This document shows positions 6,001-15,000 of a stretch of DNA of 22,189 bases, piece by piece. A program made the position numbers. Location of the stretch: NCBI GenBank assembly GCA_046861645.1, contig JBHHUM010000034.1:1-22189 (forward strand), read 5' to 3'. Numbering within the stretch: the stretch's first letter is position 1; each line of letters opens with the position of its first letter. The DNA comes from Fidelibacterota bacterium (GTDB lineage: Bacteria; Fidelibacterota; Marinisomatia; Marinisomatales; UBA2128).

Positions 6001-9000
6001 AATATCCACGTTGAAATCCCTTACTCAGAAAATCAAAGACAGCTTTACCTACCGGCGAGTCAATCGTGATCTCGTTATCTGCTCCAATGAGTGTGCTTCC
6101 TCCTGAAGCTGCAATATAAAAAGTGTAAAAATCAAAGAAGCGGTGCCACCATTCCGTATTAATATCTATATCCATCATCCACTGATCAAAATAACCATCA
6201 TGATCAAGGTCTTGAGTCAATATCTCAGCAGCCGCGAAATAATCTGAATAAGTCTTCAACGGTGCAGTAATGCCATTTTCCTTAAATAACTGTCTGTTGT
6301 AATAGAGCACAATAGGATTGCATTTCCAGGGCATCTGATAAATGAAACCATCTTTGGATCGAAATTGATCATGCAATTCCACAGGAATACGGGAGGTAAA
6401 GAGGCTATCGAATCCTGGCAGAGTATCCATTCTGACGACAACTCCCGCTTCCACATATTGCTGCGCGGTTCCAGGCCAGAGGTTGGAATAGATATCCGGG
6501 GTTGTATTGCTGACAATCGCCGCAAGTATCACCTCCTCGCTGGATCGTCCTTCAGGTATGGGCTGATGTTTCACCAACCATGCGGGATGAAGCTCATTCC
6601 ACTGTTTAACAACTTCTAATGCCAAAGTGATTTCGTGGGGATTATTAGAAGACCAATAGGTAAGGAGGTAAGGGCTTTCTGAGGATCCTGATCGAGAGCA
6701 ACCGGAAAACAACATACCGGTTAGTATGACAATAGAAGTTACTCCCATGATTTTCATGGAAATCAGGAGGTAAAGCTTATGGTGACAGCCTGTAAAAAGC
6801 CCAGGTGGCCAAAATCGCGGTACCCGTAATCCACAGCAATTGATCCAAATGAAGTAGGTACTATTACACCACCCCCCAGACTAAAACCCTCTATACTATC
6901 ATCCTGTTGAAGACTACTACTTCCCAATCTTAAAAAGACTGAATTCCACAGGGAAATTTCAACGCCCGCATCAATAGCTTCATAATTATTGCTGGGATGA
7001 ATGGCATCTACTTCCGCCGATACTCTCAACTGTTTACTTTTTATGATATCGGTGGCCAGTCCAAAGCGGAAGTTCAGCGGCAGCGACCAGACATCCAAAC
7101 CGTATTCAGCCGGGATAAGATTGTTATTTCCTTCAATAGTAGGATCAGGATCATGTACAATGTCCATATCCCGACCGTCCATCTGCATATCAGTTCCATA
7201 GTTACTCAACACCACGATTACCTTTAAACCGTTGAACAGGTTCGTAGTATATGAAGTGCCAAAATCGATGGCGGTACCCCGGGCCACCGAGTGCCAGATA
7301 CGCTCCTGTACATACTTGATATTGGCTCCGATGGCAAATCTGTCCGTGAGGGCTCTGGCGGCAGAGACAGCAATGACCATATCCCCGGCATCAAAGAATT
7401 GACCAGTTCCCTCCTGTTCAATCTCAGTACGTACCGGCATATCATCCATCGACCAGGTTGATATAAAGGCTCCCAACACAAACTGCTGTCTCAGGGGAAC
7501 TACTACAGAAAAATGTTGAACTCGCGTATCGACAAACCAGGGCAAATAGGAAGCGCTTATTAGGAGTGATTTGACCGTGGCTGCTGAGGCGGGATTCCAA
7601 AAGAACACCGTGGCATCCTCGGTTAATCCACCCACAGCGTTTCCCAGAGCCATCCCCCTGGCACTACCAGGAAAGCTGAGAATTTCACCAGCAGTAGTCC
7701 CCACTTTGGAAACGTTACTGACAAAATTCTGGGAGCTGGCAACTCCTACCATCAACAGAACGATGAATGTGAGCTTCTGCATCTTACTTGATAACAGCAA
7801 ATTTCCCCACAGCCTCTTGCCCGAAGGCCTCTATGACGTAGAAGTAGATTCCATAGGCAATGTTCATTCCATCCTTACTTACCAGATCCCATGCTTCCTG
7901 TCCACTTCCTCCCGTCCCATTATGCTCGATTGTATCTACCAGTTTTCCTGATTTGGTGTAAATGGTAATCGTGCACTGTTCAGGAAGACCCATAAAGTAA
8001 ATTCGACGTTCTCCCCGACCTGATTTGTACAGATTGGATGGCTCAAAAATGCTCGTGGCTACATAAGGATTAGGAACCACAAAAACTTCATCCATGGCAT
8101 CCTTACCCATCTTTTCATCAACCTCAGCCCCTTGCACCGTAAAGCGGTATCGCTCGCTATTACGGAAAGGTTTAGTGGTTGTCACACGAACAAGATCCCC
8201 CGCACCGGGAGGCAGTGGCGTAACGCCCTCTTCGGGAGCAAACAGTCTGATTACCCATGATACCCAGTAATTCGGATATACAGGATCGGCACCCGCACTA
8301 TCACCCGCTAAAATGATTATAGGTTCATTGGCTTGCCATTCATGATCATAAGACAGTGAATCTCCTTGCAGTCTCTCGACAACACCAAACTTGGCATATT
8401 TCTGTTCTGTAGCATTCCATACTCGGAACGGGACTGGTATTCCCGGTCGACCAACGGGTCCATAGGGCCATCCTAACTGGAAAGAAGTATCCACTACCTC
8501 ATTTTCAAAAATTATCATATAATCGGCAGGATAAAGAAGCTTGCGGTTGCCGTAATCGCCCCAGACGTTATCACCCAAAATAAGTTCCTTGACCGTAACA
8601 ACATAATTGGATTGGTGATCACCATACCAGCCACTGGCACTGTCCACAATACTTATTGTTGTGTCGTTGTAAACCACAATACCCAGTCCATTTGTAATAG
8701 GCATTTCCTGTCCATAGAGCTTCACCTCGATAGAGTCAAATAAAGTCGTCTGGCTGGTGTTATCCTGGAGACTTACCATTGGTATTGAATCATCGTAATG
8801 GGAGGACTCCTCGGAAAAAACCAATTGGTATTCATGTCCATCTTTCAGGGAATCGCTTTGCACGACAAAAACATCAACGTATCCTGTGGCAGGACCCGGC
8901 AGTGTATCCCACTCAACAAAAATTTGTTCGTCGATACTTCCTTCTGTATAACCTGCGGCTTTCACCCGGGGTGTAACTACAGCCGTATTGATATCGGTCT

Positions 9001-12000: not shown

Positions 12001-15000
12001 GATGGGATAAGCGAGACCGAATCTAGGACTCCACTGAACATACGGTTTGGAAGTAGAACGCTCTGAACTCTGAGGGCGCTCTAAATCATTAACCACCTCT
12101 CCCCTGGCATCGAAATAGTCCAGTCTAACTCCAGCATTGATAATCAAATCTTTAGACTCCACCTTGGTTTGCAGATAGGCAGCACCTTCAAGGGGATCTC
12201 GATTGTATTCCTGATTATCCGCAGTATTGGGAGGAGGAACCTGTATTTCAAAACCGGTCTCGGGGTTTCGTTTAAGTTCCAGGTCATGAAGATATAACTG
12301 ATGCAATTGCCATTCGGTACCAGTGCTCACTTCGACTGTTCGGTTCAATTGCGAGGTAATATCCGCTTTAAAGGTCGCTGTTTGTGTGCTTCTTTCATAA
12401 TAACGCATATCAGTACCACCGGTATAAAAAGAGAAATTACCATGATCTTCGAGTCTCGTATCGGTTGAGTACCGGGTATCAAGGGAGTCATCGAATAAGA
12501 AACGATCATATTCTTTCCATAAATAAGAAAGTGCCAAGTTGAAATAGGTGCGTTGAGAAAGAAGAAAATTCCAGGACACATAACCAATTATATTTCTTTC
12601 CCCAATGCGACTATTCCCCTTGGGAGTGAATGAAAACATGTGTTCATAGATTCCATAGTTTCGATTCTGGTAAGTCATGTTAAAAGCAATTCTGCTGCGA
12701 GAAGTCAGGGGAAACGAAATCTTACCAAATATTGATTCACGACGATAGTCTGACATCGGCACAAAACCAAGAGTATCCCGGAAAACAACACTATCATCCA
12801 GAACGGAAGGTTCAAAATAATCTCTCCCAAAAAGATGTCCTTCGTCAGTAGTTAACTGGTAATTAAAGAGGTATCTCATGCGACCCAGCAGAGGACCATT
12901 CAGAAATAGTGAATATTCACTGTAAGCCAGGGGATTAATTTCATCGATGTTGCGAAAGATGTCTGTATTGGTGGAATAATAGTCTCCCAATGTAGTGCTG
13001 AAGTTACCTCCAAAATTATCCATCCCTTCCCGAGTAATAATTTCTACGATACCCGATTGAGCCTGACCATACTCAGCATTAAAGGTTCCACTGACGACTT
13101 TCAATTCCTGAATTACACTATTTTCTACAAGTAAGGCAGCATTACTGGCGAAGACATCATTCACCGGAATGCCATCAATCAGGTACGAGACTTCCTGACT
13201 CCGGCCACCCCGAAAGTGCCCATCAACAACACCAGCCTGAAGATTCAACAGGTCATCTACCGTTTGCACAGGCATAATCTCTATTTGTTGAGCAGATACC
13301 GAAGCGGATGTAGATGTTCGATCGATCTCAATAACCGGTTTTTCAGCAACTACAGTCACTGCTTCAGCCGCTTCAAGAACCGTCGGGTGGAGTGCACCGT
13401 TCACTTCAGTAGTATGATCAGAGCGAACATCAATATTATCAATGATGAGTTCTGTATAGCCAATCATGGAAAACTTCAAGGAGTACAGTCCCGGGCTTAC
13501 ATTCAGAATCAAGTAAAAACCATCCGCTCTGCTGGCAGCACCTAATTGCGTACCAGTGATGACTACATTAACACCAGCCAGAGGATCTCCTTCGGAATCG
13601 GTAACGGTGCCCATGATTTTACCAGTGGTCGCCCCCTGTGACAATGTTGTAATTCCTATTAAAAAAGTAATGAAAACCAGGTTATAAAAGACCCCTGAAC
13701 GGGAATTATTGATCTGTTGCTTCTGCCTGGTCAAAATGACAGTCCTTTTGTTATCCAAACTACTACTAAATATCCGTTAGCTCAAGATTCCATTCAAGAC
13801 GAATGAGAGAAGGAAAAGGGGCGAAAATAAACTCGCCCCTTTCCTCATCACTATCACTTTACTTAAGGTAAGTGATCTTGCGGACTTGAGATTCCTTATG
13901 ATCCAGAAGGATCCGTGCAAAATAAGGACCTGATGGAGCAGGTGTTCCATCACTTCTCTTACCGTTCCATTGAACCTGATGTCGGCCCCGCTCAAGATTC
14001 TCATCAATGAGAGTAGCTACTTCACGTCCGAGAATATCATAGATTATCAATTTGACATGCTCCAGTTGTGGAATGTCAAAAACAATATTGATAGTCGGAT
14101 TGAACGGGTTGGGATATGCTGTAAGTAGTTTAAACTCCTCCGGCATAATTCCATCAGTATACTGGTCTTCAATGGCAAGAGGTGTAGTCTTCATCACCAT
14201 AAAGTCATCCCAGTAGCTCGTCCCACGGAAGAAATGCCAGTACCGAGCTCTCAAACTGAACTGGGTAGCATCATCAGGTGGTGTCAATACCGCCTGATAC
14301 AGCGTCCAATCCGTAGTGTCACCAGCCACTTCAAACCGGTAATCACTACCGCCAACTTCTCCCCAGTTATCTGCACCCATCGTGCCATCATGCCAGGTAA
14401 CTGTGAAACCCATACCATAACTCGGATCGCTGTTTACTGAATCGGCCAGCCCATCAGCTAACTCGGCCTTGATGTAAACCGAAAATACCAGTGGTGAACC
14501 ATCATTGACAAACTCCGTGGGATCAGAGTTGACCACCACTTCATAGCCGGTACCATCCTTAACCAACTTCAAGGAAGCGTCTCCCGAATGGGACTCCTCT
14601 GTCGTCTGTCCGGCAAAGACCGGCACTTCCGTGTCCCATGCAGAATCGCCCCAACTGAAATTAGGCCACCAGTAAAACCAGCCCTCCGGTACATCTACAT
14701 TGGGATTGAAGAAATCTCCAGCCCACTCTCCGTCCGTCGTATTCCTGATGAAATAATCATCTAAATACGCCGTACCTGTGGCTGCCGAACCCATCTTGAA
14801 CTCCGTCGTGATCTGTGATACGGTCACCGGAAACGAAAGGGGATCGGTACTCTTTACCTCCACCCAATCAGTACTGGCTGACGTCTGCGGAACATCTATG
14901 ACATACGGCGCCCCTAACAGATCATCACCATTTTCATCCAGAAAATTGAATATGACCTGTATCTTCTCGTCATCTGAAGACGGATTTGTATTCACTCCGT

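What a model noticed while it worked through the whole genome (the two positions that open the first line are those of the whole stretch)
6763..13734. Repeated three-gene uptake module: TonB-dependent transporter, giant T9SS-tailed surface protein and its own PorV/PorQ-l [...]
Seven loci in this genome repeat the same gene order - an Oar-type TonB-dependent transporter, an unannotated 700-1,250-aa protein that ends in a divergent type IX secretion C-terminal domain, and a small (335-345 aa) PorV/PorQ-family outer-membrane barrel - and two more loci hold parts of it; two of them sit inside sugar-utilisation clusters (C141 with GH130 mannoside phosphorylases and a sugar ABC importer; C165:33797-41395 with alpha-amylase, GH57, CBM20). 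Boldest reading: each barrel permanently holds the C-terminal domain of its neighbour, as PorQ holds PorZ, so that the big protein stays on the cell surface as the substrate-catching lid of the adjacent transporter: a lipoprotein-free c [...]
Evidence so far: Gene order listed by script: C111:7608-14693, C115:692-7833, C115:9044-16207, C120:11293-18966, C141:6763-13734, C145:18606-25484, C165:33797-41395; partial C168:3-4461, C170:1414-4517. The big proteins have no Pfam/NCBIfam/Swiss-Prot row, are paralogues (28-49% identity) and share a ~100-aa C-terminus that weakly matches CHU_C/Por_Secre_tail (E 0.01-0.06). g01612 has >3,000 homologues at 50-75% identity in Fidelibacterota, Rhodothermia, Balneolaceae, KSB1, all 'hypothetical'. 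AlphaFold model (25-row alignment, pLDDT 71): all-beta multidomain; best PDB match PorZ 5m11 (Foldseek E 3.8e-6, prob 1.0, but TM 0.08-0.11), then PorU. Complex prediction of barrel g01611 with residues 965-1096 of g01 [...]
(Added by a program. Inside this text positions count along the whole contig: contig position 1 is position 1 of the stretch shown here. "Call 12" and the like, gene names such as g00115 and contig names such as C1 are that model's own, and its searches are not shown. The text may have been shortened before it was handed on; [...] marks where a part breaks off. The agent that wrote the report below was given it as the finding of a first reader that could run no searches.)

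Follow-up and report, generated by a model that had tools for sequence, protein, structure and literature searches.

The report
TonB transporter, T9SS surface protein, private barrel
Three tightly packed outer-membrane genes (an importer, a 1,100-residue secreted protein of unknown family and a small barrel that seems to recognise that protein's tail) form a widespread, apparently undescribed nutrient-uptake module that here sits in a mannoside-utilisation operon.

Summary
Window 6763-13758 (minus strand) encodes a TonB-dependent transporter, a 1096-aa secreted protein with no Pfam family, and a PorV/PorQ-family barrel, separated by 2 and 1 nt. The trio recurs 7 times in this genome. In other FCB-group genomes it keeps its order in 53 of 56 testable loci.

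New here:
- The big protein's C-terminal domain is a discrete subtype of the T9SS type-A signal, with an insert. It is found almost only in genes next to such barrels.
- Across 54 modules the tail co-varies with the barrel, while the rest of the protein co-varies with the transporter. None of the three tracks the ABC importer genes of the same operon.
- The "partial" C168 locus is a conserved variant: transporter, barrel and an NHL lipoprotein, with no T9SS cargo.

Best reading (about 0.5): a T9SS-exported surface partner is held by its own barrel beside the transporter. Here it serves manno-oligosaccharide uptake ahead of an ABC importer and GH130 phosphorylases.

I found no published description. 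This scan has noted the same trio in at least 121 other genomes.

The parts
17893..18927 (-). LacI-family regulator heading the locus
   Evidence: Pfam LacI + Peripla_BP_3. Homologues lie in the flanks of 18 of 80 related loci.
16545..17495 (-). GH130 mannoside phosphorylase (316 aa)
   Evidence: PF04041, 197 bits.
13859..16372 (-). 837-aa T9SS cargo with an ordinary type-A C-terminal domain; the conserved gene upstream of the transporter and a likely surface glycan binder
   Evidence: Por_Secre_tail / FlgD_ig at residues 753-833. Full-length homologues (28-35% identity) sit directly upstream of the TBDT in at least 12 other loci, some with CBM_4_9.
13811..13845 (-). G+C-rich hairpin followed by a T run between the 837-aa gene and the transporter (terminator-like)
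   Evidence: Read directly from the sequence; not tested further.
11077..13758 (-). TonB-dependent transporter with an N-terminal CarboxypepD_reg domain, plug and barrel (893-aa ORF)
   Evidence: PF13620, PF07715 and PF00593. SusC/RagA TIGR04056 scores only 46 bits against a cut-off of 368.
7784..11074 (-). 1096-aa secreted protein of unknown family: signal peptide, conserved N-terminal region with Asp-rich loops, an FN3-like segment (by eye), a variable middle and the C-terminal domain
   Evidence: No Pfam family. 2998 homologues. The N-terminal profile finds 506 clusters at E <= 1e-30 and nothing in the PDB.
7787..8131 (-). C-terminal domain of the big protein: type-A-like T9SS signal with an 8-17-aa insert after PNPY, a conserved Cys and His, ending GKFAVIK
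   Evidence: Alignment with ordinary CTDs. Subtype HMM: 117-156 bits for subtype members against <= 38 bits for about 70 ordinary CTDs in this genome. In other genomes: median 133 bits against 22-31.5 bits.
6763..7782 (-). PorV/PorQ-family outer-membrane barrel (339 aa from the ATG)
   Evidence: NF033709 150 bits (cut-off 90). PorV, PorQ and PorV2 equivalogs are all far below cut-off. The family profile hits F. johnsoniae PorV 6h3i_F at E 2.7e-27.
5456..6757 (-). Sugar ABC substrate-binding protein; its ATG lies 5 nt after the barrel's stop codon
   Evidence: SBP_bac_1/8; junction. Homologues lie in the flanks of 27 of 80 loci.
3688..5455 (-). Two ABC permeases (4601-5455 and 3688-4497)
   Evidence: BPD_transp_1. 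Homologues in 26 of 80 loci.
2754..3662 (-). GH130 beta-1,2-mannobiose phosphorylase-like enzyme
   Evidence: NF052550 477 bits against a cut-off of 450.
1518..2753 (-). 411-aa protein of unknown function within the operon
   Evidence: Homologous to the PDB 7tem chain titled 'putative exported protein', E 1.3e-52. Only a weak GH76 row in Pfam.
338..1399 (-). MalK/UgpC-type ABC ATPase
   Evidence: NF008653 478 bits.

Best explanation
The three genes make one outer-membrane uptake unit.

Proposed mechanism: the 1096-aa protein is exported by Sec (ordinary signal peptide) and then across the outer membrane by the genome's type IX secretion system. Its variant C-terminal domain is recognised by the PorV/PorQ-like barrel encoded 1 nt downstream, not (or not only) by the general PorV. 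This parallels PorZ and PorQ, or type-B cargos and their PorP/SprF shuttles. The barrel keeps the protein on the cell surface beside the TonB-dependent transporter encoded 2 nt upstream. There the protein's body helps capture or hand over substrate.

In this copy the substrate is probably a manno-oligosaccharide. After crossing the outer membrane it would be taken up by the co-transcribed ABC importer and split by GH130 phosphorylases. The upstream 837-aa type-A cargo is probably an additional surface glycan binder.

Shown by computation:
- gene families and tight spacing;
- repetition in this genome and conserved order elsewhere;
- the tail subtype and its adjacency to barrels;
- the covariation pattern;
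- presence of T9SS core genes.

Inferred: export route, retention on the barrel, contact with the transporter, and the binding function.
For: Families and spacing.

T9SS core genes in this genome: SprA 610 bits, PorU 685 bits, a canonical 472-aa PorV, and at least 50 type-A tails.

Synteny around 80 relatives from Ignavibacteriota, Calditrichota, Fidelibacterota, Rhodothermota and others: TBDT directly upstream in 61 of 65 testable loci (62 after inspecting L085), barrel directly downstream in 64 of 66, both in 53 of 56.

Tail subtype:
- Own genome: 8 of 9 module barrels lie within 800 bp of a subtype gene.
- Two complete genomes of the phylum: 14 of 17 subtype genes (>= 72 bits) end <= 1.6 kb upstream of a barrel, and 14 of 18 non-PorV barrels have such a gene.

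Covariation over 54 modules:
- Tail against barrel, controlling for the TBDT: r 0.344. This is the top of 25 equal-length windows (the others reach at most 0.225, mean 0.08).
- Body windows against the TBDT, controlling for the barrel: 0.36-0.61. The tail scores only 0.287.
- The periplasmic N-terminal domain of the TBDT does not track the body (0.09 against 0.30-0.58 elsewhere).

Control on 18 modules that share the ABC genes: correlations within the trio are 0.73-0.93 and trio against ABC genes 0.35-0.50. The known partners SBP and permease correlate at 0.92.

All three genes have the same nearest module in 27 of 54 cases.

Uptake context: of 48 genes just downstream of the barrel, 10 are sugar SBPs and 8 are GH94, GH16 or GH10. 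Of 42 genes just upstream of the TBDT, 31 are type-A cargos, 8 of them with CBM4_9 or CBM9 (90 of 101 neighbours scanned, tallied by hand). SBP and permease homologues lie within 7 kb in 27 and 26 of 80 loci, and GH130 in 10. Locus type clusters on the TBDT tree: 7 changes against a shuffled mean of 20.2, with 0 of 200 shuffles as low.

Internal parallel: next to SprA, a gene with a PorZ-like tail is followed by two PorQ-like barrels.

Precedents: cognate shuttles for type-B tails (PMC12618676, abstract read); BamG holding BamH beside BamA (PMC12578637, passage read).
Against: No structure or complex prediction could be run, so neither the tail-barrel nor the body-transporter contact has been seen here.

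A conserved variant (TBDT, barrel, NHL lipoprotein, no T9SS tail) occurs in 13 of 13 orthologous loci examined. So the barrel family does not always need a tail partner.

The middle of the barrel co-varies with the TBDT independently of the tail (0.54-0.65).

Two Ignavibacteriales loci (L036, L070) carry the big gene with neither TBDT nor barrel.

Some subtype-tail genes lack a barrel of their own: C111:19069-21225, C17:7249-9441, and 3 of 17 in the complete genomes.

Covariation of distances can also arise if the trio moves between genomes as a block. Partial Mantel statistics are known to be liberal among related sequences.

There are no expression or localisation data, and no carbohydrate-binding or catalytic domain is detectable in the big protein.
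Confidence: 0.5

Rival explanations
1. The barrel is only a cognate shuttle. It takes the big protein off the T9SS translocon, as PorP/SprF-like proteins do for type-B cargos. The protein is then released, or attached by PorU, and acts as a free or loosely bound glycan binder or enzyme. There is no stable complex with the transporter.
For: Tail subtype and barrel adjacency and tail-barrel covariation fit a shuttle as well as an anchor. PorU and the general PorV are present. Cognate shuttles are published (PMC12618676, abstract read).
Against: It does not explain why the transporter is kept directly upstream in 61-62 of 65 loci. It does not explain why the body tracks the transporter as closely (r 0.93) as SBP tracks permease (0.92) while ignoring the ABC genes. 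It does not explain why the barrel itself tracks the transporter.
Confidence: 0.2
2. The barrel is first of all a partner of the transporter: an adaptor docked on its wall, as BamG is on BamA, or a FadL-like side channel. The big protein's tail is handled by the general PorV. Gene order reflects a shared substrate, not tail recognition.
For: The conserved TBDT-barrel-lipoprotein variant has no tail cargo. Barrel residues 145-264 co-vary with the TBDT when the tail is controlled for (0.54-0.65). BamG precedent (PMC12578637, passage read).
Against: The discrete tail subtype sits next to these barrels and not on the roughly 70 ordinary cargos. The tail is the best barrel-tracking window of 25, and the N-terminal third of the barrel tracks the tail (0.30-0.44). 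The two readings are compatible if the barrel is a two-sided adaptor.
Confidence: 0.15
3. The big protein is an enzyme of an unrecognised family (an endo-glycanase or lyase) that cuts polymers at the surface for the transporter. It is not a binder or lid.
For: It is large, secreted, sits in sugar loci and has many invariant Asp, Glu, Arg and Trp residues. No family is known.
Against: The same conserved N-terminal region occurs in modules linked to starch, mannoside, beta-glucan (GH16, GH94) and xylan (GH10, GH43) genes. This argues against one fixed catalytic specificity. Separate secreted enzymes or CBM cargos are usually encoded alongside.
Confidence: 0.08
4. The transporter works outward, helping export or insert the big protein as Oar does for PopC in Myxococcus (recalled, not checked here). 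The trio would then be a secretion device, not an uptake device.
For: The transporter carries an N-terminal CarboxypepD_reg domain, and the genes are tightly coupled.
Against: A complete T9SS and a T9SS-type tail already account for export. The operon runs straight on into an ABC sugar importer and phosphorylases.
Confidence: 0.03

Closest known systems
SusC/SusD (RagA/RagB) pairs and utilisomes of Bacteroidota polysaccharide utilisation loci
   Same: A TonB-dependent transporter with an N-terminal extension domain is encoded directly beside a conserved surface partner. The pair sits inside regulated sugar loci with secreted binders and enzymes, and has diversified into locus-type-specific subfamilies.
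   Different: The transporter fails the SusC model (46 against 368 bits). The partner is not SusD-like and not a lipoprotein, is twice SusD's size, carries a T9SS tail and comes with its own barrel. SusD_RagB was found in 16 of 121 sampled genomes of the phylum. The big family was found in 121 of 121, with E < 1e-50 in 106.
PorQ-PorZ and PorV-PorU sub-complexes of the T9SS attachment complex (Porphyromonas gingivalis)
   Same: A PorV/PorQ-family barrel is paired with a large beta-rich protein whose C-terminal domain weakly resembles those of PorZ and PorU. This genome has a PorZ-like-tail gene followed by PorQ-like barrels in the same order.
   Different: The barrel fails the PorQ and PorV equivalog models (72.7 against 220 bits; 42.6 against 250 bits). 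The protein is not PorZ (16.8 against 260 bits). The pair is present in many copies per genome and is always tied to a transporter, not to the secretion machine.
Type-B CTD cargos with cognate PorP/SprF-like shuttles or anchors (PMC12618676, abstract read; PMC9143113, search listing only)
   Same: The cargo gene is followed by a small outer-membrane barrel gene. A tail subclass matches a barrel subclass, and some orphan cargos lack a barrel of their own.
   Different: The barrel belongs to the PorV/PorQ family; no PorP/SprF model matched at E <= 0.01. The tail is a type-A derivative with an insert, not type B (CHU_C 16.3 against 27 bits). A transporter is part of the unit.
BamG-BamH on BamA in the Bacteroidota BAM complex (PMC12578637, passage read)
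   Same: A 14-stranded FadL/PorV-like barrel is docked on a larger barrel and holds an extracellular protein by its loops. This is the architecture proposed here, and it fits the lipoprotein variant on C168.
   Different: Different large barrel (BamA rather than a transporter), different function (protein insertion), and BamH is a lipoprotein rather than a T9SS cargo. No homology was tested here.
Non-SusD lipoprotein lids of TonB-dependent transporters (BtuG, XusB, HmuY and DUF families; bioRxiv 10.1101/2023.03.17.533168, passages read)
   Same: [quoted passage not shown]
   Different: Those lids are surface lipoproteins. This one reaches the surface by T9SS and needs a barrel. Binding to the transporter's outer face was predicted there but could not be tested here.

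Membership tests
SusC/RagA TonB-linked transporter (TIGR04056) | Score at or above the curated cut-off over the whole protein | tested here: not met
   46.1 bits against a cut-off of 368.25; only residues 47-172 match.
SusC/SusD-type PUL | A SusD/RagB-family lipoprotein gene adjacent to the transporter | tested here: not met
   No SusD family among the 14 window proteins. The genome's single SusD_RagB match lies elsewhere (C145:5521-5766).
PorV/PorQ family (NF033709) | Score at or above the family cut-off | tested here: met
   150.1 bits against 90. The family profile hits solved PorV 6h3i_F at E 2.7e-27.
PorV proper (NF033710), PorQ proper (NF033711), PorV2 (NF052325) | Equivalog cut-off reached | tested here: not met
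   42.6 against 250, 72.7 against 220 and 45.5 against 325 bits. The same holds for the 8 paralogous barrels.
PorP/SprF shuttle family | Match to the family model | tested here: not met
   No such row at E <= 0.01 in the NCBIfam scan of the barrel. That this library holds a PorP/SprF model is recalled, not checked.
T9SS type-A C-terminal domain (PF18962 / TIGR04183) | Model match at threshold, and shared motifs (PNP..., G.Y.Y, K..v.K end) | tested here: inconclusive
   No PF18962 row. FlgD_ig E 0.024 and CHU_C E 0.011, both below cut-off. The motifs align with 11 ordinary tails apart from an 8-17-aa insert.
T9SS type-B C-terminal domain (CHU_C PF13585) | Model match at threshold | tested here: not met
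   16.3 bits against 27. 6 of 40 family members match at E <= 0.1, best 1.1e-4.
PorZ (NF052228) | Equivalog cut-off; two beta-propellers plus CTD | tested here: not met
   16.8 bits against 260, over the last 105 residues only.
T9SS substrate (functional class) | Sec signal peptide, CTD-type tail, T9SS core in the genome | tested here: met
   Signal peptide read from the sequence. Tail. SprA, PorU and PorV present. Secretion itself is not testable here.
Lid or accessory protein of a TonB-dependent transporter | Adjacent on the same strand; association conserved across families | tested here: met
   2-nt spacer. 61-62 of 65 loci across several phyla.
Lid or accessory protein of a TonB-dependent transporter | Binds the outer face of the transporter; required for uptake | not testable with these tools
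Only covariation speaks to this.

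The most novel reading that the evidence does not exclude
FCB-group bacteria outside the classical Bacteroidia build their main nutrient-capture machines differently from SusC/SusD. A TonB-dependent transporter, a two-sided PorV-like adaptor barrel and a roughly 1,100-residue protein of a new fold family form a stable ternary complex. T9SS delivers the protein, and a private tail-barrel lock fixes it over the transporter. On this reading a major and possibly ancestral job of type IX secretion is to assemble uptake complexes. The tail insert would be a third class of T9SS sorting signal that encodes the destination.
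Probability: 0.35. Interest if true: 0.85.

Novelty: new variant of a known kind. Interest (0 to 1): 0.72.

Why it matters
TonB-dependent uptake of polymers underlies carbon turnover by Bacteroidota, and the SusC/SusD lid model is taken as its hallmark.

This module appears to be how other large FCB lineages equip the same transporters: Fidelibacterota (Marinimicrobia), Ignavibacteriota, Calditrichota and Rhodothermota.
- The big family was found in 121 of 121 sampled genomes of this phylum, usually in several copies. SusD_RagB was found in 16 of 121.
- In this genome the module serves 9 of 23 transporters.

If the mechanism holds:
- It gives a second, lipoprotein-independent way to place a partner on a transporter. 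This addresses the question raised in bioRxiv 10.1101/2023.03.17.533168 of why lids seem confined to Bacteroidota.
- It defines a new T9SS sorting-signal and shuttle class.
- It names a family of about 3,000 'hypothetical' proteins.
- It offers a marker for substrate-specific uptake loci in uncultured marine and subsurface bacteria.

Tried and rejected
Structure and complex prediction:
Each retry came after 20 other calls, as the message allowed.

Sequence routes to a fold or function for the big protein gave nothing:
- Pfam on 40 members gave only weak CHU_C and FlgD_ig rows.
- The whole-family profile against the PDB gave only the PorU tail at E 0.11.
- The N-terminal profile against the PDB gave nothing at E <= 10.
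- The ESM Atlas returned only unnamed clusters of the same family and holds no model.
- The N-terminal profile against 1.84 billion representatives returned only the same architecture among the 150 listed.

Expression: no RNA holder listed. Only four DNA runs of one study hold the stretch.

Literature: seven searches found no description of the trio. The Caldithrix abyssi genome paper (PMC5317091, passages) and a SAR406 paper (bioRxiv 10.1101/095471, passage) mention TonB receptors or Por-tail proteins, but not this unit. Supplements were not read.

Rejected: reading C168 as a broken copy. Rejected: linkage or species phylogeny alone as the cause of the covariation, although block-wise transfer is not excluded.

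A single-sequence PDB search with the barrel gave only chance rows.

Full report
**What is in the window.** All genes of the window lie on the minus strand. In the order of transcription they are:
- a LacI regulator (17893-18927);
- a GH130 enzyme (16545-17495);
- an 837-aa protein with an ordinary T9SS type-A tail (13859-16372);
- a TonB-dependent transporter with an N-terminal CarboxypepD_reg domain, plug and barrel (11077-13758);
- a 1096-aa protein with no Pfam family (7784-11074);
- a PorV/PorQ-family barrel (6763-7782; NF033709 150 bits against a cut-off of 90);
- a sugar ABC binding protein and two permeases;
- a GH130 that passes the beta-1,2-mannobiose phosphorylase model (477 against 450 bits);
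- a 411-aa unknown protein;
- a MalK-type ATPase.

The transporter's stop codon and the big gene's ATG are 2 nt apart. The big gene's stop and the barrel's ATG are 1 nt apart. The barrel's stop and the binding protein's ATG are 5 nt apart. A G+C-rich hairpin with a T run separates the 837-aa gene from the transporter.

The big protein starts with an ordinary signal peptide and has no lipobox.

**Repetition in the genome.** BLASTP of the three proteins against all ORFs of the 2.5-Mb, 184-contig assembly finds the same order at C115 (twice), C165, C145, C120 and C111, besides the window. Partial copies lie at C168 and C170. Ten genes pass the PorV/PorQ family cut-off: nine sit in these loci and one is a 472-aa canonical PorV on C113. 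Pfam confirms alpha-amylase and a CBM20 cargo beside the C165 copy, with GH57 at C165:45856-46650. Of 23 plug-domain transporters in the genome, 9 belong to such loci.

The genome has a T9SS: SprA (610 bits), PorU (685 bits) and at least 50 type-A tails. Next to SprA, a 551-aa gene with a PorZ-like tail is followed by two PorQ-like barrels, the same cargo-then-barrel order.

**Conservation elsewhere.** The big family has 2998 members at E <= 1e-20 among 8000 candidates scored. The best 120 are 49-75% identical, and every one that carries a name is 'hypothetical'. The names of these closest homologues (FCB group, Neomarinimicrobiota, Marinimicrobia, Fidelibacterota) suggest the genome belongs to Fidelibacterota. 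This is not a taxonomic assignment.

A scan of one genome per species found 589 relatives among 603 candidate stretches. The best 80 loci come from genomes labelled Ignavibacteriota, Calditrichota, Fidelibacterota, Rhodothermota, Balneolaceae, Stahlbacteria, Eisenbacteria and others.

I scored those loci with HMMs built from this genome's paralogues:
- a transporter lies directly upstream in 61 of 65 testable loci;
- a barrel lies directly downstream in 64 of 66;
- both are present in 53 of 56.

Inspection of the exceptions:
- L085 has a Pfam-confirmed transporter 778 bp upstream, beyond my distance limit.
- L036 and L070 (both Ignavibacteriales) are true exceptions, with an unannotated protein of about 825 aa and a MalK gene in place of transporter and barrel.
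- L031 stays unresolved.

In a sample of 121 genomes of the window's phylum, all 121 match the family at E <= 1e-10, and 106 match at E < 1e-50; a group of genomes of about 1 Mb has only weak matches. SusD_RagB is found in 16 of the 121. This genome has one SusC/SusD-like pair, on C145.

**The tail is a subtype tied to the barrels.** Aligned with eleven ordinary tails of this genome, the big proteins' tails share the type-A scaffold. They differ by an 8-17-aa insert after PNPY (E..NLY.SGRG.R), a conserved Cys and His, and a GKFAVIK ending. The PorZ-like tail next to the PorQ-like barrels has a smaller insert at the same site.

An HMM of the subtype, trained on this genome's eleven copies, behaves as follows:
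- In this genome it scores the eleven training copies at 117-156 bits (by construction), one untrained protein on C17 at 80 bits, and about 70 ordinary tails at <= 38 bits.
- In the other genomes' loci, which it never saw, 77 big-family ORFs score a median of 133 bits (range 34-148). The 26 ordinary cargos next door score 22-31.5 bits.

Adjacency to barrels:
- In this genome, 8 of 9 module barrels lie within 800 bp of a subtype gene.
- In two complete genomes of the phylum, 14 of 17 subtype genes (>= 72 bits) end within 1.6 kb upstream of a barrel on the same strand. Conversely, 14 of 18 barrels other than the canonical PorV have such a gene (pairing done by hand from the coordinates).

**Who co-varies with whom.** For 54 complete modules (48 from other genomes and 6 from this one), the nearest module by BLAST is the same for all three genes in 27 of 54. 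Distance matrices correlate at 0.92 (transporter and big protein), 0.85 (barrel and big protein) and 0.88 (transporter and barrel).

I split the big protein into 25 windows of 111 residues:
- The tail has the highest partial correlation with the barrel when the transporter is controlled for: 0.344, p 0.002. The other 24 windows reach at most 0.225 (mean 0.08). With ranks the figures are 0.451 against at most 0.287.
- The tail has a lower partial correlation with the transporter (0.287) than any other window (0.36-0.61).

Within the transporter, the periplasmic N-terminal domain does not follow the body (0.09), whereas the plug and barrel do (0.30-0.58). Within the small barrel, residues 25-144 follow the tail (0.30-0.44), and residues 145-264 follow the transporter (0.54-0.65).

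As a control I used the 18 modules that also carry the ABC genes in the same operon:
- The three outer-membrane genes correlate with each other at 0.73-0.93.
- They correlate with the binding protein and permeases at only 0.35-0.50.
- The binding protein and the permeases, which are known partners, correlate at 0.92.
- The partial correlations of body or tail with the ABC genes are about zero.

So linkage and species history alone do not explain the pattern. Block-wise transfer of the trio would explain it as well as physical co-adaptation does. Partial Mantel statistics are also liberal among related sequences. I treat this as suggestive.

**Context points to uptake.** I scanned 90 of the 101 nearest neighbours of the modules and tallied the result by hand.
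- The gene just upstream of the transporter is a type-A cargo in 31 of 42 cases, 8 of them with CBM4_9 or CBM9.
- The 48 genes just downstream of the barrel comprise 10 sugar ABC binding proteins, 5 GH94, 2 GH16, 1 GH10, 7 further tail-bearing cargos (2 with CBM20), 5 PPIase-like proteins, 4 others and 14 with no family. Nine of those 14 are 504-548 aa, the size of the PPIase-like ones.

The window's 837-aa cargo has full-length homologues in that upstream position in at least 12 loci. Within 7 kb of the 80 loci, homologues of the window's binding protein occur in 27, of the permeases in 26, of LacI in 18 and of GH130 in 10.

On a transporter tree the window's module falls in a 28-row clade, of which 24 rows are ABC-linked. 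Locus type needs 7 changes against a shuffled mean of 20.2, with 0 of 200 shuffles as low. Related rows share labels, so this shows clustering only. The other copies in this genome fall in other clades.

**A variant that complicates the anchor idea.** The C168 locus has transporter, barrel and then a 459-aa NHL-repeat protein, with no big gene. The barrel has orthologues (58-88% identity) in 20 of 30 other genomes of the order. All 13 loci fetched keep the order transporter, barrel, NHL protein. The NHL protein has an invariant Cys19 behind a signal peptide in 13 of 13 sequences and no T9SS tail, so it is probably a lipoprotein.

The barrel family can therefore serve a transporter without a tail partner. 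This fits a two-sided adaptor, as BamG is for BamA and BamH (PMC12578637, passage read), better than a pure tail anchor.

**What could not be done.** Profile searches of the PDB found only the PorU tail (E 0.11) for the big family and PorV (E 2.7e-27) for the barrel family. No RNA run holds the stretch.

**Comparison and novelty.** The unit works like a SusC/SusD pair in position and context, but it fails every membership test for one. The cargo-barrel half works like PorZ-PorQ, or like type-B cargos with PorP/SprF shuttles (PMC12618676, abstract read). However, it uses another barrel subfamily and another tail class. Non-SusD lids described so far are lipoproteins (bioRxiv 10.1101/2023.03.17.533168, passages read).

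Seven literature searches found no description of the trio. Earlier notes of this scan report the same trio in at least 121 other genomes, with the same reading. Those are unchecked AI notes, not independent evidence.

**Verdict.**
- A conserved, co-evolving outer-membrane module: about 0.95.
- Recognition of the tail by the neighbouring barrel: about 0.75.
- Stable display beside the transporter, with a capture or hand-over role: about 0.5.

Noticed in passing
G000 C168:692-5840 (L010); orthologous loci L098-L110: Conserved variant of the module: transporter, PorV-like barrel, then a 459-aa NHL-repeat protein with an invariant lipobox Cys and no T9SS tail. All 13 loci examined from other genomes of the order keep this order.
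   Followed up: partly
G000 C168:8525-18728 (L010): Next to SprA lie an M28 peptidase, a 291-aa gene, a 551-aa gene with a PorZ-like tail and two PorQ-like barrels. This is probably the organism's attachment-complex genes, in cargo-then-barrel order.
   Followed up: partly
window 7784-11074 and 6763-7782; paralogues: The likely signal-peptidase sites of the big proteins and the barrel are followed by Gln (…LLFS/QG, …LEA/QR, …VASS/QN). This recalls the 'Q-rule' that PMC5837995 (abstract seen) describes as specific to Bacteroidetes and not general to the FCB group.
   Followed up: no
window 1518-2753: A 411-aa operon member has no family call, but it is clearly homologous (E 1.3e-52) to the solved chain 7tem_A, titled only 'putative exported protein'. 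Homologues occur in 7 of 80 related loci, so it may be an unrecognised enzyme of mannoside use.
   Followed up: partly
window 19895-21052 and 21223-22059: A Fic/DOC protein with a winged-helix C-terminus, and a 278-aa ORF with a weak IS481 transposase match, lie upstream of the sugar locus on the same strand.
   Followed up: no
L036:4405-10225 and L070:4500-10226: Two Ignavibacteriales loci carry the big gene with neither transporter nor barrel. It is preceded by an unannotated protein of about 825 aa and followed by a MalK-type ATPase. In L070 the big gene is split into two ORFs.
   Followed up: partly
G000 C111:7608-21225 (L009); G017:C1:609773-621049: A shorter class (about 700 aa) of proteins carries the same tail subtype. 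They occur in pairs of transporter + tail protein that share one barrel, with a 229-aa gene and a TIG-domain gene in between.
   Followed up: no
G000 C145:1476-5766 (L096): The genome also has one SusC-like transporter (1023 aa) followed by a SusD_RagB-matching ORF, so the two systems coexist.
   Followed up: no
Loci L037, L041, L043, L045, L046, L048, L050-L054, L056, L062, L079: In many relatives a 504-548-aa protein, sometimes matching Rotamase_2 (PPIase, SurA-like), is inserted between the barrel and the ABC genes. The C165 copy in this genome has a PPIase gene just upstream of its transporter.
   Followed up: no
G000 C32:1-2523 and C170:1-4517: A transporter that runs off a contig end, and a big gene that runs off another contig's end, could be two halves of one further module.
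   Followed up: no
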